This document shows, in pieces, positions 2,510-53,052 of a stretch of 64,000 nt of DNA (within the stretch, counting starts at the first letter, position 1; each line of letters starts with the position of its first letter). The stretch lies in NCBI RefSeq assembly GCF_013315695.1, contig NZ_CP054353.1; one strand, 5' to 3'. Both the position numbers and the translations under genes were made by a program. This DNA is from Escherichia coli (GTDB lineage: Bacteria > Pseudomonadota > Gammaproteobacteria > Enterobacterales > Enterobacteriaceae). The notes beneath the pieces are model-generated. The model was not told the origin of the DNA and ran no database searches. It saw only the letters and a program-made list of their open reading frames with translations.

Positions 2510-6025
<3,516 letters not shown>

Positions 6026-23812: not shown

Positions 23813-23832
23813 TCAGCGAAACGTTTCGCTGA
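23813..23832 (+). promoter_or_regulatory. RbsR operator in the rbs promoter region
   Basis: Perfect 20-bp palindrome TCAGCGAAACGTTTCGCTGA 12 bp upstream of rbsD, typical LacI/GalR-family operator. Confidence 0.85.
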
Positions 23833-23843
23833 TGGAGAAAAAA

Positions 23844-24263
23844 ATGAAAAAAGGCACCGTTCTTAATTCTGATATTTCATCGGTGATCTCCCGTCTGGGA
23901 CATACCGATACGCTGGTGGTGTGTGATGCTGGTTTACCCATCCCCAAAAGTACAACGCGTATCGATATGGCATTAACCCAGGGGGTACCTTCTTTTATGC
24001 AGGTGCTGGGCGTCGTCACAAATGAAATGCAGGTCGAAGCTGCCATTATCGCGGAAGAGATCAAACAACATAATCCGCAACTCCACGAAACGTTGCTCAC
24101 TCACCTTGAGCAGCTGCAAAAACACCAGGGAAATACCATTGAAATTCGTTACACCACGCATGAACAATTCAAACAACAAACCGCAGAAAGTCAGGCGGTA
24201 ATTCGCAGCGGAGAATGTTCTCCGTATGCGAATATCATTCTCTGTGCTGGCGTGACGTTCTGA
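23844..24263 (+). CDS. rbsD: D-ribose pyranase RbsD, 139 aa
   Basis: ORF track 23832..24263; start at the ATG giving [20 protein letters not shown]. Confidence 0.93.
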
Positions 24264-24270
24264 GGCCGTC

Positions 24271-25776
24271 ATGGAAGCATTACTTCAGCTTAAAGGCATC
24301 GATAAAGCCTTCCCGGGCGTAAAAGCCCTCTCGGGCGCAGCGTTAAATGTCTATCCGGGCCGCGTGATGGCGCTGGTGGGCGAAAACGGCGCGGGTAAAT
24401 CCACCATGATGAAAGTGCTTACTGGTATCTATACTCGCGATGCCGGCACGCTTTTATGGCTGGGGAAAGAAACGACATTTACCGGGCCAAAGTCTTCCCA
24501 GGAAGCCGGGATTGGGATTATCCACCAGGAACTGAACCTGATCCCGCAGTTAACCATTGCCGAAAACATTTTCCTCGGTCGTGAGTTTGTTAATCGCTTT
24601 GGCAAAATTGACTGGAAAACCATGTATGCCGAAGCGGATAAATTGCTGGCTAAACTTAACCTGCGCTTTAAAAGCGACAAGCTGGTGGGCGATCTTTCCA
24701 TCGGTGACCAGCAAATGGTTGAAATCGCCAAAGTGCTGAGCTTTGAGTCGAAAGTCATCATTATGGATGAACCGACCGATGCGCTGACCGATACCGAAAC
24801 CGAATCCTTGTTCCGCGTCATCCGCGAGCTGAAATCGCAAGGCCGCGGTATTGTCTATATTTCCCACCGCATGAAAGAAATCTTCGAGATTTGCGATGAC
24901 GTTACCGTTTTTCGTGACGGGCAATTTATTGCTGAGCGTGAAGTAGCATCACTGACCGAAGATTCGCTGATTGAGATGATGGTGGGCCGCAAGCTGGAAG
25001 ATCAATATCCGCACCTGGACAAAGCGCCAGGAGATATTCGCCTGAAAGTCGATAATCTCTGCGGACCTGGCGTTAACGATGTCTCTTTTACTTTACGCAA
25101 AGGCGAAATTCTTGGCGTCTCTGGTTTGATGGGCGCAGGTCGTACCGAACTGATGAAAGTGCTCTACGGCGCACTGCCGCGCACCAGCGGTTACGTCACC
25201 CTGGATGGGCATGAAGTCGTTACCCGTTCACCGCAGGATGGCCTGGCAAACGGCATTGTGTATATCTCCGAAGACCGTAAACGTGACGGTTTAGTGCTGG
25301 GCATGTCAGTAAAAGAGAACATGTCGCTGACAGCGCTGCGCTACTTCAGCCGCGCTGGCGGCAGTTTGAAGCATGCCGATGAACAGCAGGCAGTAAGTGA
25401 TTTCATTCGTCTGTTTAATGTGAAAACGCCGTCAATGGAACAGGCAATTGGTCTGCTCTCCGGTGGCAATCAGCAAAAAGTGGCGATTGCCCGTGGTCTG
25501 ATGACACGCCCCAAAGTGTTGATCCTCGATGAGCCTACCCGTGGCGTAGATGTCGGCGCGAAAAAAGAGATCTATCAACTGATTAACCAGTTCAAAGCCG
25601 ATGGCTTGAGCATCATTCTGGTGTCATCGGAGATGCCAGAAGTATTAGGCATGAGCGATCGCATCATCGTCATGCATGAAGGGCATCTCAGCGGGGAATT
25701 TACTCGTGAGCAGGCCACCCAGGAAGTGTTAATGGCTGCCGCTGTGGGCAAGCTTAATCGCGTGAATCAGGAGTAA
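24271..25776 (+). CDS. rbsA: Ribose ABC transporter ATP-binding protein RbsA, 501 aa
   Basis: ORF track; two ABC ATPase domains (GENGAGKST and GLMGAGRTE Walker A motifs). Confidence 0.96.
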
Positions 25777-25780
25777 AAAA

Positions 25781-26746
25781 ATGACAACCCAGACTGTCTC
25801 TGGTCGCCGTTATTTCACGAAAGCGTGGCTGATGGAGCAGAAATCGCTTATCGCTCTGCTGGTGCTGATCGCGATTGTCTCGACGTTAAGCCCGAACTTT
25901 TTCACCATCAATAACTTATTCAATATTCTCCAGCAAACCTCGGTGAACGCCATTATGGCGGTCGGGATGACGCTGGTGATCCTGACGTCGGGCATCGACT
26001 TGTCGGTAGGTTCTCTATTGGCGCTGACCGGCGCAGTTGCTGCATCTATCGTTGGCATTGAAGTCAATGCGCTGGTGGCTGTCGCTGCCGCTCTCGCGTT
26101 AGGTGCCGCAATTGGTGCGGTAACCGGGGTGATTGTAGCGAAAGGTCGCGTCCAGGCCTTTATCGCTACGCTGGTTATGATGCTTTTACTGCGCGGCGTG
26201 ACCATGGTTTATACCAACGGTAGCCCAGTGAATACTGGCTTTACTGAGAACGCCGATCTGTTTGGCTGGTTTGGTATTGGTCGTCCGCTGGGCGTACCGA
26301 CGCCAGTCTGGATCATGGGAATTGTCTTCCTCGCGGCCTGGTACATGCTGCATCACACGCGTCTGGGGCGTTACATCTACGCGCTGGGCGGCAACGAAGC
26401 GGCAACGCGTCTTTCTGGTATCAACGTCAATAAAATCAAAATCATCGTCTATTCTCTTTGTGGTCTGCTGGCATCGCTGGCCGGGATCATTGAAGTGGCG
26501 CGTCTCTCCTCCGCACAACCCACGGCGGGGACTGGCTATGAGCTGGATGCTATTGCTGCGGTGGTTCTGGGCGGTACGAGTCTGGCGGGCGGAAAAGGTC
26601 GCATTGTTGGGACGTTGATCGGCGCATTAATTCTTGGCTTCCTTAATAATGGATTGAATTTGTTAGGTGTTTCCTCCTATTACCAGATGATCGTCAAAGC
26701 GGTGGTGATTTTGCTGGCGGTGCTGGTAGACAACAAAAAGCAGTAA
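25781..26746 (+). CDS. rbsC: Ribose ABC transporter permease RbsC, 321 aa
   Basis: ORF track; hydrophobic polytopic protein in operon position. Confidence 0.95.
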   Translation: MTTQTVSGRRYFTKAWLMEQKSLIALLVLIAIVSTLSPNFFTINNLFNILQQTSVNAIMAVGMTLVILTSGIDLSVGSLLALTGAVAASIVGIEVNALVAVAAALALGAAIGAVTGVIVAKGRVQAFIATLVMMLLLRGVTMVYTNGSPVNTGFTENADLFGWFGIGRPLGVPTPVWIMGIVFLAAWYMLHHTRLGRYIYALGGNEAATRLSGINVNKIKIIVYSLCGLLASLAGIIEVARLSSAQPTAGTGYELDAIAAVVLGGTSLAGGKGRIVGTLIGALILGFLNNGLNLLGVSSYYQMIVKAVVILLAVLVDNKKQ

Positions 26747-26770
26747 TAACGACTACAGGACATCTTGAAT

Positions 26771-27661
26771 ATGAATATGAAAAAACTGGCTACCCTGGTT
26801 TCCGCTGTTGCGCTAAGCGCCACCGTCAGTGCGAATGCGATGGCAAAAGATACCATCGCGCTGGTGGTCTCCACGCTTAACAACCCGTTCTTTGTATCGC
26901 TGAAAGATGGCGCGCAGAAAGAGGCGGATAAACTTGGCTATAACCTGGTGGTGCTGGACTCCCAGAACAACCCGGCGAAAGAGCTGGCGAACGTGCAGGA
27001 CTTAACCGTTCGCGGCACCAAAATTCTGCTGATTAACCCGACCGACTCCGACGCAGTGGGTAATGCTGTGAAGATGGCTAACCAGGCGAACATCCCGGTT
27101 ATCACTCTTGACCGCCAGGCAACGAAAGGTGAAGTGGTGAGCCACATTGCTTCTGATAACGTACTGGGCGGCAAAATCGCCGGTGATTACATCGCGAAGA
27201 AAGCGGGTGAAGGTGCCAAAGTTATCGAGCTGCAAGGCATTGCCGGTACATCTGCAGCCCGTGAACGTGGCGAAGGCTTCCAGCAGGCTGTTGCTGCTCA
27301 CAAGTTTAATGTTCTTGCCAGCCAGCCAGCAGATTTTGATCGCACTAAAGGTTTGAACGTAATGCAGAACCTGTTGACCGCACATCCGGATGTTCAGGCT
27401 GTATTCGCGCAGAATGATGAAATGGCGCTGGGCGCGCTGCGCGCACTGCAAACTGCCGGTAAATCGGATGTGATGGTCGTCGGATTTGACGGTACACCGG
27501 ATGGCGAAAAAGCGGTGAATGATGGCAAACTAGCAGCGACTATCGCTCAGCTACCCGATCAGATTGGCGCGAAAGGCGTCGAAACCGCAGATAAAGTGCT
27601 GAAAGGCGAGAAAGTTCAGGCTAAGTATCCGGTTGATCTGAAACTGGTTGTTAAGCAGTAG
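26771..27661 (+). CDS. rbsB: Periplasmic ribose-binding protein RbsB, 296 aa
   Basis: ORF track 26765..27661; start at the ATG giving [25 protein letters not shown] (signal peptide). Confidence 0.95.
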
Positions 27662-27785
27662 TTTTAATCAGGTTGTATGACCTGATGGTGACATAAATAC
27701 GTCATCGACAGATGAACGTGTATATAAAGAAAAGCAGGGCACGCGCCACCCTAACACGGTGGCGCATTTTATGGACATCCCGAAT

Positions 27786-28715
27786 ATGCAAAACGCAGGC
27801 AGCCTCGTTGTTCTTGGCAGCATTAATGCTGACCACATTCTTAATCTTCAATCTTTTCCTACCCCAGGCGAAACCGTAACCGGTAACCACTATCAGGTTG
27901 CATTTGGCGGCAAAGGCGCGAATCAGGCTGTGGCTGCTGGGCGTAGCGGTGCGAATATCGCGTTTATTGCCTGTACGGGTGATGACAGTATTGGTGAGAG
28001 CGTTCGCCAGCAGCTCGCCACTGATAACATTGATATTTCTCCGGTCAGCGTGATCAAAGGCGAATCAACAGGTGTGGCGCTGATTTTTGTTAATGGCGAA
28101 GGTGAGAATGTCATTGGTATTCATGCCGGCGCTAATGCTGCCCTTTCCCCGGCGCTGGTGGAAGCGCAACGTGAGCGTATTGCCAACGCGTCAGCATTAT
28201 TAATGCAGCTGGAATCACCACTCGAAAGTGTGATGGCAGCGGCGAAAATCGCCCATCAAAATAAGACTATCGTTGCGCTTAACCCGGCTCCGGCTCGCGA
28301 ACTTCCTGACGAACTGCTGGCGCTGGTGGACATTATTACGCCAAACGAAACGGAAGCAGAAAAGCTCACCGGTATTCGTGTTGAAAATGATGAAGATGCA
28401 GCGAAGGCGGCGCAGGTACTGCATGAAAAAGGTATCCGTACTGTACTGATTACTTTAGGAAGTCGTGGTGTATGGGCTAGCGTGAATGGTGAAGGTCAGC
28501 GCGTTCCTGGATTCCGGGTGCAGGCTGTCGATACCATTGCTGCCGGAGATACCTTTAACGGCGCGTTAATCACGGCGTTGCTGGAAGAAAAACCATTGCC
28601 AGAGGCGATTCGGTTTGCCCATGCTGCCGCTGCGATTGCCGTAACACGTAAAGGCGCACAACCTTCCGTACCGTGGCGTGAAGAGATCGACGCATTTTTA
28701 GACAGGCAGAGGTGA
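27786..28715 (+). CDS. rbsK: Ribokinase RbsK, 309 aa
   Basis: ORF track 27759..28715; start at the ATG giving MQNAGSLVVLGSINADHIL. Confidence 0.95.
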   Translation: MQNAGSLVVLGSINADHILNLQSFPTPGETVTGNHYQVAFGGKGANQAVAAGRSGANIAFIACTGDDSIGESVRQQLATDNIDISPVSVIKGESTGVALIFVNGEGENVIGIHAGANAALSPALVEAQRERIANASALLMQLESPLESVMAAAKIAHQNKTIVALNPAPARELPDELLALVDIITPNETEAEKLTGIRVENDEDAAKAAQVLHEKGIRTVLITLGSRGVWASVNGEGQRVPGFRVQAVDTIAAGDTFNGALITALLEEKPLPEAIRFAHAAAAIAVTRKGAQPSVPWREEIDAFLDRQR

Positions 28716-28718
28716 CGC

Positions 28719-29711
28719 TTGGCTACAATGAAAGATGTTGCCCGCCTGGCGGGCGTTTCTACCTCAACAGTTTCTCACGTTATCAATAAAGATCGCTTCG
28801 TCAGTGAAGCGATTACCGCCAAAGTTGAAGCGGCGATTAAAGAACTCAATTACGCGCCATCAGCTCTGGCGCGTAGCCTCAAACTCAATCAAACACATAC
28901 CATTGGCATGTTGATCACTGCCAGTACCAATCCTTTCTATTCAGAACTGGTGCGTGGCGTTGAACGCAGCTGCTTCGAACGCGGTTATAGTCTCGTCCTT
29001 TGCAATACCGAAGGCGATGAACAGCGGATGAATCGCAATCTGGAAACGCTGATGCAAAAACGCGTTGATGGCTTGCTGTTACTGTGCACCGAAACGCATC
29101 AGCCTTCGCGTGAAATCATGCAACGTTATCCGACAGTGCCTACTGTGATGATGGACTGGGCTCCGTTCGATGGCGACAGCGATCTTATTCAGGATAACTC
29201 GTTGCTGGGCGGAGACTTAGCAACGCAATATCTGATCGATAAAGGTCATACCCGTATTGCCTGTATTACCGGTCCGCTGGATAAAACTCCGGCGCGCCTG
29301 CGGTTGGAAGGTTATCGGGCAGCGATGAAACGTGCGGGTCTCAACATTCCTGATGGCTATGAAGTCACTGGTGATTTTGAATTTAACGGCGGGTTTGACG
29401 CTATGCGCCAACTGTTATCACATCCGCTGCGTCCTCAGGCTGTCTTTACCGGAAATGACGCTATGGCTGTTGGCGTTTACCAGGCGTTATATCAGGCAGA
29501 GTTACAGGTTCCGCAGGATATCGCGGTGATTGGCTATGACGATATCGAACTGGCAAGCTTTATGACGCCACCATTAACAACTATCCACCAACCGAAAGAT
29601 GAACTGGGGGAGCTGGCGATTGATGTACTCATCCATCGGATAACCCAACCGACCCTTCAGCAACAACGATTACAACTTACTCCGATTCTGATGGAACGCG
29701 GTTCGGCTTAG
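28719..29711 (+). CDS. rbsR: LacI-family ribose operon repressor RbsR, 330 aa
   Basis: ORF track; N-terminal [27 protein letters not shown]. Confidence 0.95.
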
Positions 29712-38946: not shown

Positions 38947-40464
38947 TGTCAGTAGTTTTTGCAGATGGATGAGCAAACGGTCAATGGCACGATAGCTAAC
39001 TGCCTCCTGCAAATGCTGACGTGTGATAATGTCGGACTGATCAATATCAGCAATGGTTCGTGCAACTTTCAGTAACCGCTGCCAGGCACGAATCGATAAC
39101 CCCAGATGGATCAGCGTTTCTTCCAGCCACTGCGCATCTTCGCTCTCAAGCTTGCAGAATTGGCGTATTTCCGGATTATCCAGCCAGGCGTTCAGTTTAT
39201 TCTGCCGCTTAAATTGGCGCTCTCTGGCGGCCATTACACGTTGTTTAACGGTGGTGCTGTTTTCTCCCTGCACTACCGTTTTACTCAAAATGCCGGGGGG
39301 CGGTAATGGGATCTCTAGTGAGAGATCGAAGCGGTCGAGAAAGGGCCCCGAGAGCCGGTTGAGATAACGTAATGTCTGTTCTGGTGTGCAGCGGTTATGG
39401 TTTCCCTGATAATGTCCGGTAGGGCTGGGATTCATCGCCGCGACAAGCTGGAAACGGGCTGGATAGGTTATTTTTGCTCGTGTGCGTGAAAGATGGATCT
39501 GCCCGGATTCAATCGGCTCTCGCAAGGCATCCAGTGTACGCCGTTCAAATTCAGGTAGCTCATCAAGAAAAAGCACGCCGTTATGCGCCAGCGAAATTTC
39601 ACCTGGCCCTGGAATTGCACCACCGCCCACCATCGCAGTTAACGACGCACTGTGATGAGGTGAGCGGAATGGGCGCTGCCGCCATTGTTTTTGTACTGAT
39701 TCAGCATTTACCAGACTTAATATCGCAGCGCTCTCCAGTGCCTCTTCATTGCTTAAATCTGGCAACAGGCCATTAATACGGCTGGCGAGCATTGTTTTAC
39801 CTGTTCCCGGCGGCCCAATCAGTAAAAGGTTGTGCCCGCCAGCGGCGGTAATTTCCAGTCCTCGCTTTCCTTGCTCCTGACCGACAACATCACTGAGATC
39901 ATGTTGTAGCGCCCGGGATACTGCATCAGTTGGTTTCGGGCGTTCGAGAGCGTGCTTACCCTCCAGAAACGCACAGACAGCCTGCAGATGATCGGCTATC
40001 AGGCATCCTTCACCGTTAATTAGCCCCACTTCATCCTCGTTATCTTTCGCGACGATAATTTTTCTGCCCGACTTAATGGCTTCAGTTGCACTGGAGATTG
40101 CGCCGGGAACGGCACGCAGAGCGCCTGTAAGCGCCAGTTCTCCGACTAATTCATATTCATCTAACTTATTGGCTGTAAGCTGTTCTGAGGCTGCCAGCAA
40201 CGCAATGGCGATAGGTAAATCATATCGTCCCCCTTCTTTTGGCAGATCGGCTGGAGCAAGGTTGATGGTGATTTTTTTCGCCGGATATTCATATCCGCTA
40301 TTGATAATGGCGCTGCGCACGCGATCGCGAGCTTCTTTTACCGTTGTTTCTGGTAAGCCCACCATCGTTAAGCCTGGTAGACCTTTACTGATATGTACCT
40401 CAACAGTGATTGGGGGCGCATTTACTCCCAGGGCTGCGCGGGTATGAACAATTGACAGTGACAT
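38944..40464 (-). CDS. comM: Mg-chelatase-like AAA+ ATPase ComM (YifB), 506 aa
   Basis: ORF track 38944..40494; start at the ATG giving MSLSIVHTRAALGVNAPPITVEV with GGAGGG Shine-Dalgarno upstream. Confidence 0.92.
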   Translation of the reverse strand: MSLSIVHTRAALGVNAPPITVEVHISKGLPGLTMVGLPETTVKEARDRVRSAIINSGYEYPAKKITINLAPADLPKEGGRYDLPIAIALLAASEQLTANKLDEYELVGELALTGALRAVPGAISSATEAIKSGRKIIVAKDNEDEVGLINGEGCLIADHLQAVCAFLEGKHALERPKPTDAVSRALQHDLSDVVGQEQGKRGLEITAAGGHNLLLIGPPGTGKTMLASRINGLLPDLSNEEALESAAILSLVNAESVQKQWRQRPFRSPHHSASLTAMVGGGAIPGPGEISLAHNGVLFLDELPEFERRTLDALREPIESGQIHLSRTRAKITYPARFQLVAAMNPSPTGHYQGNHNRCTPEQTLRYLNRLSGPFLDRFDLSLEIPLPPPGILSKTVVQGENSTTVKQRVMAARERQFKRQNKLNAWLDNPEIRQFCKLESEDAQWLEETLIHLGLSIRAWQRLLKVARTIADIDQSDIITRQHLQEAVSYRAIDRLLIHLQKLLT

Positions 40465-51030: not shown

Positions 51031-53052
51031 ATGCGTCTAAACCCCGGCCAACAACAAGCTGTCGAATTCGTTACCGGCCCCTGCCTGGTGCTGGCAGGCG
51101 CGGGTTCCGGTAAAACTCGTGTCATCACCAATAAAATCGCCCATCTGATCCGCGGTTGCGGTTATCAGGCGCGACATATCGCGGCGGTGACCTTTACCAA
51201 TAAGGCGGCGCGCGAGATGAAAGAGCGTGTCGGGCAGACGCTGGGGCGCAAAGAGGCGCGCGGGCTGATGATTTCCACCTTCCACACGCTGGGGCTGGAT
51301 ATCATCAAGCGTGAGTATGCGGCGTTGGGGATGAAAGCGAACTTTTCGCTGTTTGATGACACCGATCAGCTGGCGTTGCTTAAAGAGCTGACCGAGGGGC
51401 TGATTGAAGATGACAAAGTCCTCCTGCAACAGCTGATTTCGACCATCTCTAACTGGAAGAACGATCTCAAAACACCGTCCCAGGCGGCAGCCAGTGCGAT
51501 TGGCGAGCGGGACCGTATTTTTGCCCATTGTTATGGGCTGTATGATGCACACCTGAAAGCCTGTAACGTTCTCGACTTCGATGATCTGATTTTATTGCCG
51601 ACGTTACTGCTGCAACGCAATGAAGAAGTCCGCGAGCGCTGGCAGAACAAAATTCGCTACCTGCTGGTGGATGAGTATCAGGACACCAACACCAGCCAGT
51701 ATGAACTGGTGAAACTGCTGGTGGGCAGCCGCGCGCGCTTTACCGTAGTTGGCGATGACGATCAGTCGATCTACTCCTGGCGCGGTGCACGTCCGCAAAA
51801 CCTGGTGCTGTTGAGTCAGGATTTCCCGGCACTGAAGGTGATTAAGCTTGAGCAGAACTACCGCTCTTCCGGACGTATTCTGAAAGCGGCGAACATCCTG
51901 ATCGCCAATAACCCGCACGTCTTTGAAAAGCGTCTGTTCTCCGAACTGGGTTACGGCACAGAGCTAAAAGTTTTAAGCGCGAATAACGAGGAACATGAAG
52001 CCGAGCGCGTCACCGGCGAGCTGATCGCCCATCACTTCGTCAATAAAACGCAGTACAAAGATTACGCCATTCTTTATCGCGGCAACCATCAGTCGCGGGT
52101 GTTTGAAAAATTCCTGATGCAAAACCGCATCCCGTACAAAATTTCTGGTGGTACGTCGTTTTTCTCTCGCCCTGAAATCAAGGACTTGCTGGCTTATCTG
52201 CGCGTACTGACTAACCCGGATGATGACAGCGCGTTTTTGCGGATCGTTAACACGCCGAAGCGAGAGATTGGCCCGGCGACGCTGAAAAAGCTGGGTGAGT
52301 GGGCGATGACGCGCAATAAAAGCATGTTTACCGCCAGCTTTGATATGGGCCTGAGTCAGACCCTGAGCGGACGTGGTTATGAAGCATTGACCCGCTTCAC
52401 TCACTGGTTGGCGGAAATCCAGCGTCTGGCGGAGCGGGAGCCGATTGCCGCGGTGCGTGATCTGATCCACGGCATGGATTATGAATCCTGGCTGTACGAA
52501 ACATCGCCCAGCCCGAAAGCCGCCGAAATGCGCATGAAGAACGTCAACCAACTGTTTAGCTGGATGACGGAGATGCTGGAAGGCAGCGAACTGGATGAGC
52601 CGATGACGCTCACCCAGGTGGTGACGCGCTTTACTCTGCGCGACATGATGGAGCGCGGCGAGAGCGAGGAAGAGCTGGATCAGGTGCAACTGATGACTTT
52701 GCACGCGTCAAAAGGACTGGAGTTTCCCTATGTCTACATGGTTGGTATGGAAGAAGGATTTTTGCCCCACCAGAGCAGTATCGATGAAGATAATATCGAT
52801 GAGGAGCGGCGGCTGGCCTATGTCGGCATTACCCGCGCCCAGAAGGAATTGACCTTTACGCTGTGTAAAGAACGCCGTCAGTACGGCGAACTGATGCGCC
52901 CGGAGCCGAGTCGCTTCCTGCTGGAGCTGCCGCAGGATGATTTGATTTGGGAACAGGAGCGCAAAGTGGTCAGCGCCGAAGAACGGATGCAGAAAGGGCA
53001 AAGCCATCTGGCGAATCTGAAAGCGATGATGGCGGCAAAACGAGGGAAATAA
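51031..53052 (+). CDS. rep: ATP-dependent DNA helicase Rep, 673 aa
   Basis: ORF track 51016..53052; start at the ATG giving [31 protein letters not shown] (UvrD/Rep Walker A). Confidence 0.96.

What the first reader, a model, noticed from the sequence alone, without database searches (positions are those of the whole stretch)
27662..27785. Structured rbsB-rbsK intergenic region that could yield a 3'-UTR-derived small RNA
The 124-bp spacer after rbsB contains two inverted repeats (ATCAGG...CCTGAT and GCGCCACC...GGTGGCGC), the second followed by a short T-stretch about 20 bp before rbsK. This looks like a partial intra-operon terminator that would decouple rbsB from rbsK/rbsR levels and could release a stable 3'-end fragment. 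A 3'-UTR-derived sRNA from rbsB has been reported in E. coli, but I cannot confirm its boundaries from memory.
Basis: partly seen in the sequence, partly recalled or inferred. Interest (0 to 1): 0.3.

Follow-up and report, generated by a model that had tools for sequence, protein, structure and literature searches.

The report
Known RbsZ small RNA and terminator

Summary
The 124-nt rbsB-rbsK spacer contains both reported inverted repeats. The second (27743-27765) is followed by UUUU (27767-27770), 16 nt before the rbsK ATG at 27786. The spacer folds better than all 200 shuffles (z -4.05).

The window is E. coli. It matches MG1655 across this region except for one deleted A. RefSeq annotates ncRNA rbsZ (b4804) at a position equivalent to window 27538-27770. 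Published Term-seq places a strong RNA 3' end on the base equivalent to T27770.

RbsZ is a published sponge of the sRNA RybB.
- a third hairpin at 27697-27721;
- the functional site at 27725-27740, which is single-stranded, unique in the window, and pairs with RybB nt 1-17 (16 bp, one bulge).

In 80 Enterobacterales species rbsB and rbsK stay adjacent, and 59 keep the RybB box plus the terminator stem. Box substitutions preserve RybB pairing by moving the bulge.

Verdict: real feature, interpretation supported, already known, low interest. Minor open points are the role of hairpin 1, the 5' end of the processed form, and how the 3' end forms in genera whose U-tract is degenerate.

The parts
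27538..27770 (+). RbsZ small RNA, long isoform (233 nt here, 234 nt in MG1655). It begins inside the rbsB coding region and ends at the terminator U-tract.
   Evidence: MG1655 ncRNA rbsZ b4804 3937045..3937278 (same coordinates in PMC8175672), mapped through the alignment, which shows only a 1-nt deletion.
26771..27661 (+). rbsB coding sequence (ribose-binding periplasmic protein). Its last ~124 nt overlap the 5' part of the long RbsZ isoform.
   Evidence: ORF list, MG1655 annotation, and 83-100% protein identity in 80 loci.
27523..27531 (+). Putative extended -10 element TGgCAAACT (-15 to -7) for the annotated RbsZ 5' end at G27538. This is an inference only.
   Evidence: Read from the sequence. 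The consensus scan found no promoter. GATGGCAAACT is kept in most Enterobacteriaceae but is coding sequence. A separate promoter for the long form is stated in bioRxiv 10.1101/2023.08.28.555190.
27667..27686 (+). Hairpin 1 (AUCAGGUU-GUAU-GACCUGAU), 6 nt after the rbsB stop codon. Function not established.
   Evidence: Folds (-8.7 kcal/mol). A hairpin occupies the same place in genera with 99-147-nt spacers, with different stem sequences: 38 distinct sequences, mean z -2.9, 29 of 38 with z < -2.
27697..27721 (+). Hairpin 2 (AUACGUCAUC-GACA-GAUGAACGUGU). It is present only in Escherichia, Citrobacter and Salmonella spacers and lies under the published RbsZ northern probe.
   Evidence: -9.6 kcal/mol; for comparison across genera. 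Probe AZ1421 in PMC7815308 supplementary file 4 is the reverse complement of 27684-27720.
27725..27740 (+). RybB-complementary box (U-AAAGAAAAGCAGGGC). It pairs with RybB nt 1-3 and 5-17 and is the sponge site.
   Evidence: Duplex of 16 bp with RybB A4 bulged, -23.3 kcal/mol. Exact 15-mer is unique in the 64-kb window, with 0.14 matches expected at up to 2 mismatches. Mean unpaired probability 0.82 against 0.45 overall. Conserved in 59 of 80 species.
27743..27765 (+). Terminator hairpin GCGCCACC-CUAACAC-GGUGGCGC.
   Evidence: -15.2 kcal/mol. Conservation with compensatory changes. RepRanger lists rbsZ under 'RIT', read here as Rho-independent terminator (PMC12306157).
27766..27772 (+). Short interrupted U-tract A-UUUU-A-U. 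The RbsZ 3' end is at U27770.
   Evidence: Term-seq 3' end at MG1655 3937278, which is position 51 of the 61-nt sequence printed in PMC7815308 supplementary file 1.
27786..28715 (+). rbsK (ribokinase), followed by rbsR. Both need read-through of the terminator. A conserved GGA at 27773-27775 is the likely Shine-Dalgarno core.
   Evidence: rbsB-to-rbsK adjacency in all 80 loci. GGA is at least 90% conserved in the alignment. No promoter-like site in 26500-29000.

Best explanation
The spacer is the 3' part of the rbsZ gene of E. coli.

Making the RNA. Transcripts from the rbs operon promoter, and from a promoter inside rbsB near 27538, reach a strong hairpin (27743-27765) followed by only four U residues. 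Many transcripts end at U27770, which gives RbsZ. The rest read through to express rbsK and rbsR. This sets a higher dosage for the binding protein gene than for the kinase and repressor genes. According to the literature, a shorter isoform, RbsZ-S, is cut out of the rbs mRNA and RNase E is involved.

What the RNA does. The single-stranded linker just upstream of the terminator (27725-27740) pairs with the 5' seed of the sigma-E-dependent sRNA RybB. According to the literature, the Hfq-bound RbsZ-RybB duplex is destroyed through RNase III, so RbsZ lowers RybB and relieves repression of RybB targets such as ompC. ProQ binding protects the same duplex.

Status of each step.
- Shown here: the sequence anatomy, identity to the annotated gene, RybB complementarity with its accessibility and conservation, and the conserved terminator stem.
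- Taken from the literature: the 3' end, expression, sponge activity, and the Hfq, ProQ, RNase III and RNase E dependence.
- Inferred: partial read-through, the promoter element, and the role of hairpins 1 and 2 as stabilising or processing structures.
For: - Identity: the window equals MG1655 over 27500-27800 except for one deleted A. MG1655 annotates rbsZ b4804 at 3937045..3937278, and PMC8175672 gives the same coordinates with northern confirmation.
- 3' end: Term-seq lists a 3' end at 3937278 three times in a file covering three growth conditions. The two scores read are 84,576 and 107,544, against 1,296 for a minor end in rbsB.
- Structure: spacer fold z -4.05. Terminator stem -15.2 kcal/mol, paired in 97.2% of cells across 45 sequences with 9 compensatory cells.
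- RybB site: 16-bp duplex at -23.3 kcal/mol. The box is unique in the window and unpaired with probability 0.82.
- Conservation of the site: the box is present in 59 of 80 Enterobacterales loci. The five 3-mers seen at its variable core all rank in the top 7 of 64 for RybB pairing. RybB nt 4-27 are strongly conserved in the Rfam RF00110 consensus.
- Species level: rybB is in 5418 and the spacer in 5398 of 5426 E. coli genomes, and the spacer is single copy.
- Function in the literature: RybB sponge, with ompC mRNA rising on overexpression (PMC7815308). Hfq-dependent RNase III decay and ProQ protection (PMC9977716 and PMC9037510). RbsZ-S processing and a separate promoter (bioRxiv 10.1101/2023.08.28.555190). 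RNase E processing (PMC11347164). RybB-RbsZ contacts captured by TRIC-seq. RbsZ detected by northern in EHEC.
Against: - The primary paper (Melamed et al. 2020, Mol Cell, PMC6980735) is not in the library. The mechanism therefore rests on secondary accounts, and I could not obtain the RbsZ-S 5' end.
- No expression data exist for the strain that supplied this window.
- The U-tract is short (4 U) and is degenerate in most other genera, for example TCTCAGAT in Enterobacter. Termination efficiency, and even the origin of the 3' end, are not proven by sequence.
- Duplex energy alone does not single out the RybB site. A 60-nt window at about 52761 gives -24.2 kcal/mol.
- There is no excess synonymous-site conservation in the rbsB-coding part of RbsZ (0.93 against 0.96 bits). 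The 5' half of the long form shows no sign of RNA-level constraint.
- There is no Rfam family to test membership against.
Confidence: 0.95

Rival explanations
1. The 3' end at 27770 does not come from intrinsic termination. Read-through rbsDACBKR transcripts are instead cut downstream and trimmed 3'-to-5' until the GC-rich hairpin blocks the exonucleases. On this reading the hairpin is a stability element, not a terminator.
For: The U-tract is only A-UUUU-A-U, which just meets the scan's minimum of 5 T in 8. In most other genera that keep the hairpin and the RybB box, the tail has 4 or fewer T in 8 (TCTCAGAT, ACTCAAAC, ACTTTGAC). The stem is much better conserved than the tail.
Against: The measured 3' end sits exactly at the last U of the run, 5 nt past the stem, as expected for intrinsic termination. 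RepRanger lists rbsZ under 'RIT'. None of the searched terms (rbsZ, rbsB, rbsK, or coordinates beginning 39370-39372) occurs in the Rho-termination table, supplementary file 2 of PMC7815308. This is weak negative evidence.
Confidence: 0.15
2. The element acts only in cis. It is an intra-operon attenuator and mRNA 3' stabiliser that raises rbsB expression relative to rbsK and rbsR, as REP hairpins do after malE. It has no trans-acting role, and the released fragment is a by-product.
For: The position is right after the gene for the abundant periplasmic binding protein. There are strong hairpins, and hairpin 1 is conserved as a structure. This cis role is compatible with the best explanation and probably also operates.
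Against: As an exclusive explanation it does not account for the single-stranded 15-nt RybB complement. That box is kept in 59 of 80 species, and its substitutions preserve RybB pairing. Published experiments also show RbsZ lowering RybB and raising ompC mRNA, and RybB-RbsZ chimeras or contacts.
Confidence: 0.04
3. The palindromes belong to a repeated extragenic element (REP, BIME or ERIC type) that happened to land in this spacer.
For: Intergenic palindromes after ABC-transporter binding-protein genes are often REPs. Some Yersinia and Pectobacterium spacers at this position do carry what looks like an inserted repeat element.
Against: The sequence is single copy in E. coli genomes: median 1 and at most 2 places per genome. 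The box has no second exact copy in the window. RepRanger lists rbsZ as 'RIT', not 'REP'. The module is orthologously conserved at this one locus.
Confidence: 0.01
4. The spacer encodes a small protein. One candidate starts at ATG 27711 and another is the mini-ORF ATG-GTG-ACA-TAA at 27685-27696.
For: ATG codons exist in the spacer.
Against: The 1-nt indel between this window and MG1655 lies 3' of ATG 27711 and shifts that frame between E. coli strains. No Shine-Dalgarno sequence precedes either ATG. Spacer length varies from 57 to 262 nt with no conserved frame. No ORF of 60 aa or more is confined to the spacer.
Confidence: 0.01

Closest known systems
RbsZ (rbsZ, b4804) of E. coli K-12; Melamed et al. 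2020, Mol Cell 77:411
   Same: Same locus and strand, and the same sequence (233 of 234 nt plus one deleted A). It has the same terminator and the same RybB-complementary box. This is that gene in another E. coli strain.
   Different: Only the single A deletion in the A/T-rich stretch between hairpin 2 and the box, at about 27722. This allele is shared at 100% identity with many sequenced E. coli strains. It lies outside the RybB pairing and outside the terminator.
Other RybB sponges: FtsO (internal to the ftsI ORF) and 3'ETS-leuZ (tRNA precursor spacer)
   Same: These are by-product RNAs cut or terminated from a longer transcript. They pair with the conserved 5' seed of RybB and lower its level or activity.
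   Different: They have different genomic origins (ORF-internal and tRNA spacer) and no sequence relationship beyond the RybB complement. RbsZ is reported to be the stronger sponge on overexpression and is also bound by ProQ.
SroC (gltI-gltJ spacer), sponge of GcvB
   Same: It works the same way. An sRNA sponge is released from the region just downstream of the periplasmic binding-protein gene of an ABC-transporter operon, and it feeds back on an sRNA that represses transporter genes. This rests on background knowledge.
   Different: It has a different target sRNA and an unrelated sequence. By my recollection, not checked here, SroC is generated by RNase E processing.
RaiZ (raiA 3'UTR), a ProQ-associated 3'UTR sRNA
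   Same: It is a 3'UTR-derived sRNA with long and short (-S) isoforms that ends at the mRNA's own terminator with a short U tail. It is a ProQ ligand.
   Different: RaiZ represses an mRNA (hupA) rather than sponging an sRNA. It lies at the end of a monocistronic gene, not inside an operon.
Intra-operon partial terminators and REP stabilisers (for example malE-malF)
   Same: A hairpin after the binding-protein gene uncouples its level from the downstream genes.
   Different: Here the hairpin is single copy and not a REP. The fragment it defines has a documented trans-acting function.

Membership tests
RbsZ sRNA (E. coli rbsZ, b4804) | Encoded on the sense strand at the rbsB-rbsK junction, starting inside the 3' end of rbsB | tested here: met
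   ORFs and annotation transfer place it at window 27538-27770.
RbsZ sRNA (E. coli rbsZ, b4804) | Sequence identity to the annotated MG1655 gene 3937045..3937278 | tested here: met
   The alignment of 27500-27800 with MG1655 is identical apart from one 1-nt gap.
RbsZ sRNA (E. coli rbsZ, b4804) | 3' end at a hairpin plus U-run immediately upstream of rbsK | tested here: met
   The hairpin 27743-27765 and UUUU 27767-27770 are present. The RNA 3' end itself was measured in MG1655 by Term-seq at 3937278, not in this strain.
RbsZ sRNA (E. coli rbsZ, b4804) | Accessible sequence complementary to the 5' seed of RybB | tested here: met
   16-bp duplex at -23.3 kcal/mol, unpaired probability 0.82, unique in the window, conserved.
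RbsZ sRNA (E. coli rbsZ, b4804) | Expressed as a discrete RNA, binds Hfq and ProQ, and lowers RybB through RNase III | not testable with these tools
   Literature only. The primary paper is not held.
RbsZ sRNA (E. coli rbsZ, b4804) | Match to a curated covariance model | not testable with these tools
   Rfam 15 gives no hit at E <= 1 in 26000-29000, so no RbsZ model appears to be in the library. The same library does detect RybB.
Intrinsic (Rho-independent) terminator | Stable G+C-rich stem-loop | tested here: met
   8 bp, 7 G-C, 7-nt loop, -15.2 kcal/mol.
Intrinsic (Rho-independent) terminator | U-rich tract of about 7-9 nt directly after the stem | tested here: inconclusive
   Only A-UUUU-A-U, 5 T in 8, which is the scan's minimum. 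This fits a weak or partial terminator. The tract is degenerate in most other genera.
Intrinsic (Rho-independent) terminator | RNA 3' ends map within the U-tract and do not depend on Rho | not testable with these tools
   Published Term-seq puts the end at the last U. None of the searched rbs gene names or coordinate prefixes occurs in the Rho table. No in vitro termination data were seen.
REP / BIME repeated palindromes | Many dispersed copies per genome | tested here: not met
   Median 1 and at most 2 places per E. coli genome. RepRanger classes rbsZ as 'RIT', not 'REP'.

The most novel reading that the evidence does not exclude
The locus is known, but the comparison across species made here may add something that I could not find described. 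The primary paper was not readable, so I cannot be sure.

(1) The RybB box plus terminator stem is an ancient minimal module. It makes up nearly the whole 58-75-nt spacer in Buttiauxella, Cedecea, Erwinia, Pantoea and others, and Enterobacteriaceae later added hairpin 1 and then hairpin 2.

(2) The box never becomes a perfect RybB complement. It keeps a single bulge that moves between RybB A4, C5, U6 and G7.

(3) In many genera the U-tract is too poor for a classical terminator. There the conserved box and hairpin might act mainly in cis, as a RybB-responsive site on the rbs mRNA that controls rbsB stability or read-through into rbsK, rather than as a released sponge.
Probability: 0.12. Interest if true: 0.35.

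Novelty: already known. Interest (0 to 1): 0.12.

Why it matters
This matters little as a discovery. RbsZ is annotated in the reference genome and its role as a RybB sponge is published.

It also ties ribose-operon transcription to envelope-stress control of porins.

The comparison across 80 species gives independent evolutionary support for the RybB pairing. It also leaves small open questions:
- why a bulged duplex is kept;
- what hairpin 1 does;
- how the 3' end forms where the U-tract is degenerate.

Tried and rejected
- Rfam search of 26000-29000 at E <= 1 gave nothing, so no family model could be used.
- The primary paper could not be fetched by PMC id or PubMed id. The TIER-seq supplements that might give the RNase E site are not held. 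The 5' end of RbsZ-S therefore remains unknown to me.
- The sigma-70 consensus scan found no promoter on either strand in 26500-29000. The extended -10 I propose for 27538 is my own reading and is weak.
- Synonymous-site entropy in rbsB codons 256-296 against the rest of the gene showed no extra constraint (0.93 against 0.96 bits, rank 70 of 256). This gives no support for RNA-level selection on the coding half of the long isoform.
- Full-length RybB-RbsZ duplexfold produced an unrealistic multi-loop pairing and was discarded. Only the seed duplex is used.
- A duplex-energy scan of the whole window showed that energy alone is not specific. A site near 52761 scores -24.2 kcal/mol. I therefore relied on exact-match uniqueness and on conservation.
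- The REP hypothesis was rejected because the sequence is single copy.
- The small-ORF hypothesis was rejected because of the frame-shifting indel between strains and the variable spacer length.
- The fold of the read-through RNA predicts a long-range helix, 27687-27696 with 27769-27779, that would cover the rbsK Shine-Dalgarno region. Reading the sequences by eye, it is compensated in one Citrobacter (L005) but not in other Citrobacter or Salmonella. I do not rely on it.

Full report
**Where we are.** The window around the finding is the E. coli ribose operon:
- rbsD 23832-24263
- rbsA 24271-25776
- rbsC 25781-26746
- rbsB 26771-27661
- rbsK 27786-28715
- rbsR 28719-29711

A 601-nt query spanning the spacer matches 5398 of 5426 complete E. 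coli genomes, at 100% identity in many strains, with a median of one copy per genome.

**The observation.** The spacer 27662-27785 is 124 nt, and both inverted repeats are present.
- ATCAGG...CCTGAT extends to an 8-bp stem at 27667-27686.
- GCGCCACC...GGTGGCGC lies at 27743-27765 and is followed by A-TTTT-A-T. The T run is at 27767-27770, and the rbsK ATG is 16 nt later.

As RNA the spacer folds to -41.5 kcal/mol against -26.4 +/- 3.7 for dinucleotide shuffles (z -4.05, 0 of 200 as good). The simple terminator scan picks up 27743-27765 (8 pairs, 7 G-C). It finds 5 sites against 2.9 expected in 2.5 kb, so that hit alone is not significant.

**Identity.** RefSeq MG1655 annotates an ncRNA, rbsZ (b4804, 'small regulatory RNA RbsZ'), at 3937045..3937278, between rbsB and rbsK. 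PMC8175672 gives the same coordinates and says its northern results for RbsZ are in a supplementary figure. The window is identical to MG1655 over 27500-27800 except for one deleted A (GTGTAATATAAAG becomes GTGTATATAAAG). rbsZ therefore maps to window 27538-27770. Rfam 15 has no matching family, so membership rests on direct identity to the annotated gene.

Supplementary file 1 of PMC7815308 holds curated Term-seq 3' ends of MG1655 in three growth conditions. It lists 3937278 (+) three times, and the two entries read give scores of 84,576 and 107,544. The printed 61-nt sequence places that end on the fourth U of the UUUU run, which is window T27770. A minor end (score 1,296) lies at 3937163, which is window C27656. 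The published northern probe for RbsZ is the reverse complement of 27684-27720.

**What the RNA does, from the literature.**
- RbsZ is a sponge of the sRNA RybB. Overexpression lowers RybB and raises ompC mRNA (PMC7815308).
- The effect needs Hfq and goes through RNase III, whereas ProQ binding protects the duplex (PMC9977716; PMC9037510).
- A short form, RbsZ-S, is processed from the rbs mRNA 3'UTR, and a longer form comes from a separate promoter. RybB is said also to repress rbsB, which would give positive feedback (bioRxiv 10.1101/2023.08.28.555190).
- TIER-seq implicates RNase E in the processing (PMC11347164).
- TRIC-seq recovers the RybB-RbsZ contact.
- RbsZ is detected by northern in EHEC and is called a ProQ target.
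- The primary paper (Melamed et al. 2020, PMC6980735) is not held.

**The RybB site, tested here.** I took RybB from MG1655. Its nt 1-3 and 5-17 pair with 27725-27740, giving 16 bp with A4 bulged and -23.3 kcal/mol.

Energy alone is not specific, because one other place in the window scores -24.2. However, the 15-mer AAAGAAAAGCAGGGC occurs exactly once in the window. Only 0.14 matches are expected even when 2 mismatches are allowed.

In the terminated RNA (27662-27770) the box is the most open part, with mean unpaired probability 0.82 against 0.45 overall. It sits between hairpin 2 and the terminator. rybB is present in 5418 of 5426 E. coli genomes.

**Comparison across species.** A scan with RbsB returned 80 species of Enterobacterales, and rbsK follows rbsB in all of them. 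Spacers range from 57 to 262 nt.

Fifty-nine loci (57 distinct sequences) keep the module 'AAAGAAAAG-NNN-GGCA..GCGCCACC-loop-GGTGGCGC'. They include Escherichia, Citrobacter, Salmonella, Enterobacter, Leclercia, Klebsiella, Raoultella, Kosakonia, Buttiauxella, Cedecea, Erwinia, Pantoea, Brenneria and some Pectobacterium and Yersinia. Of the loci that failed the search pattern, most (Pseudescherichia vulneris, Serratia, Dickeya, most Yersinia) show no box and give RybB-seed energies of only -10 to -15 kcal/mol. A few (L020, L036, L065) carry a variant or partial box by eye, and L020 and L036 score about -20.

The basal 8-bp terminator stem is paired in 97.2% of cells over 45 distinct sequences. 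Compensatory changes occur at 3 pairs (9 cells). Controls with slid partners reach only 27-58%. Loop sequence and length vary freely.

**Selection on RybB pairing.** The three variable nucleotides in the middle of the box are CAG, CAT, CGT, TGT or AGT. Four of these are the four single-deletion derivatives of the perfect complement CAGT. TGT is CGT with a G-U wobble. The single bulge in RybB therefore moves between A4, C5, U6 and G7.

All five rank in the top 7 of the 64 possible 3-mers for predicted pairing with RybB. Five distinct 3-mers drawn at random would all do so with probability C(7,5)/C(64,5), about 3e-6. This ignores phylogeny.

The reading assumes an invariant RybB 5' end. The Rfam RF00110 consensus shows RybB nt 4-27 as strongly conserved, and PMC7815308 refers to conservation of the RybB seed. 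I could not fetch rybB from the same genomes.

**Architecture.** The spacer is modular.
- Minimal form: stop codon, 0-9 nt, box, hairpin, tail, rbsK. It is 58-75 nt long and is seen in Buttiauxella, Cedecea, Erwinia, Pantoea, Brenneria, Phytobacter massiliensis and Superficieibacter.
- Intermediate form: about 100-112 nt, with hairpin 1 added. Seen in Enterobacter, Klebsiella, Kosakonia and others.
- Long form: 125-147 nt, with hairpin 2 also added. Seen in Escherichia, Citrobacter and Salmonella.

Hairpin 1 is conserved as a structure with different stem sequences: 38 distinct sequences, mean z -2.9, 29 of 38 below -2. Its function is not established. I infer that it stabilises the rbsB mRNA 3' end or the 5' end of RbsZ-S, or that it guides processing.

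**Terminator strength.** The E. coli tail has four consecutive U residues (5 T in 8). Most other genera have 4 or fewer T in 8, for example TCTCAGAT in Enterobacter.

rbsK and rbsR lie directly downstream in every species, and no promoter-like site occurs in 26500-29000. Partial termination is therefore the economical reading for E. coli, but efficiency was not measured. Trimming of read-through transcripts back to the hairpin remains a minority alternative (my estimate 0.15). The 3' end falls exactly at the end of the U run. None of the searched rbs gene names or coordinate prefixes occurs in the published Rho table. Both points argue against trimming.

**The 5' half of the long isoform.** Upstream of G27538, TGgCAAACT (27523-27531) could be an extended -10 element at -15 to -7. 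This is my reading only, and the scan does not call it. Third-codon-position entropy in rbsB codons 256-296 equals that of the rest of the gene (0.93 against 0.96 bits, rank 70 of 256). Selection is therefore concentrated on the intergenic module.

**Rivals rejected.**
- REP-type repeat: the sequence is single copy, and RepRanger classes rbsZ as 'RIT', not 'REP'.
- Small ORF: a frame-shifting indel separates strains and the spacer length varies.
- Purely cis-acting attenuator: this is compatible as an additional role, but it cannot explain the conserved RybB complement or the published sponge data.

**Verdict.** It is the already known RbsZ sRNA with its terminator, so interest is low.

Noticed in passing
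window 27720-27724 (GTGTA-TATAAAG): This strain lacks one A present in MG1655 (GTGTAATATAAAG), so the spacer is 124 nt rather than 125. The deletion lies between hairpin 2 and the RybB box, outside the RybB pairing and the terminator. Many sequenced E. coli strains share this allele at 100% identity.
   Followed up: partly
window 27656 (MG1655 3937163): Published Term-seq lists a minor RNA 3' end (score 1,296, one condition) 3 nt before the rbsB stop codon. It could be the upstream product of the cut that makes the processed RbsZ-S isoform, but the flanking sequence (AAGC|AGUAG) is not a clear RNase E motif.
   Followed up: no
window 24137 (MG1655 3933644), inside rbsD: Published Term-seq shows a strong 3' end inside the rbsD coding sequence (scores 51,340 and 34,428), with no obvious terminator in the printed sequence. 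The rbsD mRNA is separately reported as a sponge for DsrA and ArcZ, so the same operon carries a second regulatory RNA.
   Followed up: no
loci L003-L082, RybB box (for example L008, L013, L040; in each locus just downstream of the rbsB match, which ends at 3388 in most loci): The core of the RybB box is always 3 nt where a perfect complement needs 4 (CAGT). The variants seen are CAG, CAT, CGT, TGT and AGT. The single bulge therefore moves along RybB nt 4-7 between genera, and no species has the perfect 16-mer (predicted -27.5 against about -20 to -23 kcal/mol).
   Followed up: partly
loci L008, L013-L017, L019, L023, L031 (Enterobacter/Leclercia) and L048, L052, L054; tail after the terminator stem: The hairpin and RybB box are conserved, but the following tract is not U-rich (TCTCAGAT, ACTCAAAC). 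Whether an RNA 3' end forms there by intrinsic termination is doubtful.
   Followed up: partly
L065 about 3389-3650; L072, L074, L075, L077 spacers (Pectobacterium betavasculorum, Yersinia spp.): These rbsB-rbsK spacers are enlarged by an inserted element. From memory, its sequence (..AATCCCCAGGAGCTTACACAAGTAAGTGACTGGGGTGAG.. and ..CTTGAAGTATGACGGGTAT) looks like an ERIC/IRU enterobacterial repeat. In L065 it sits upstream of a retained box and hairpin. In the Yersinia loci the RybB box is absent.
   Followed up: no
window 27687-27696 with 27769-27779: In the fold of the read-through RNA, GGUGACAUAA pairs with UUAUG-GA-CAUC. This would partly cover the conserved GGA (27773-27775) upstream of rbsK, and it cannot form in terminated RbsZ. 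By eye it is compensated in one Citrobacter (L005, GGAG/CUCC) but not in other Citrobacter or Salmonella, so it is probably not a conserved element.
   Followed up: partly
loci with intermediate spacers (for example L008, L031, L038), just 3' of hairpin 1; window 27772-27777: The motif GAGGGACA after hairpin 1 resembles the conserved (A/C)TGGACA after the terminator, which contains the likely rbsK Shine-Dalgarno GGA. The same short motif therefore follows both hairpins. I have no explanation for this.
   Followed up: no
window about 52761-52840 (+): The RybB 5' seed gives a predicted duplex of -24.2 kcal/mol here, slightly better than at the true RbsZ site. I treated it as a chance hit that shows duplex energy alone is not specific. 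I did not examine it further.
   Followed up: no
L055 (Entomohabitans teleogrylli), spacer about 3389-3615: This locus has a 227-nt rbsB-rbsK spacer with no RybB box. It carries a different GC hairpin right after rbsB and a second hairpin with a T-run (AAAGCCCAAAAATCTCTTTTTGGGCTTTATCGTTT). The locus appears to have been remodelled and may have separate transcription of rbsK.
   Followed up: no
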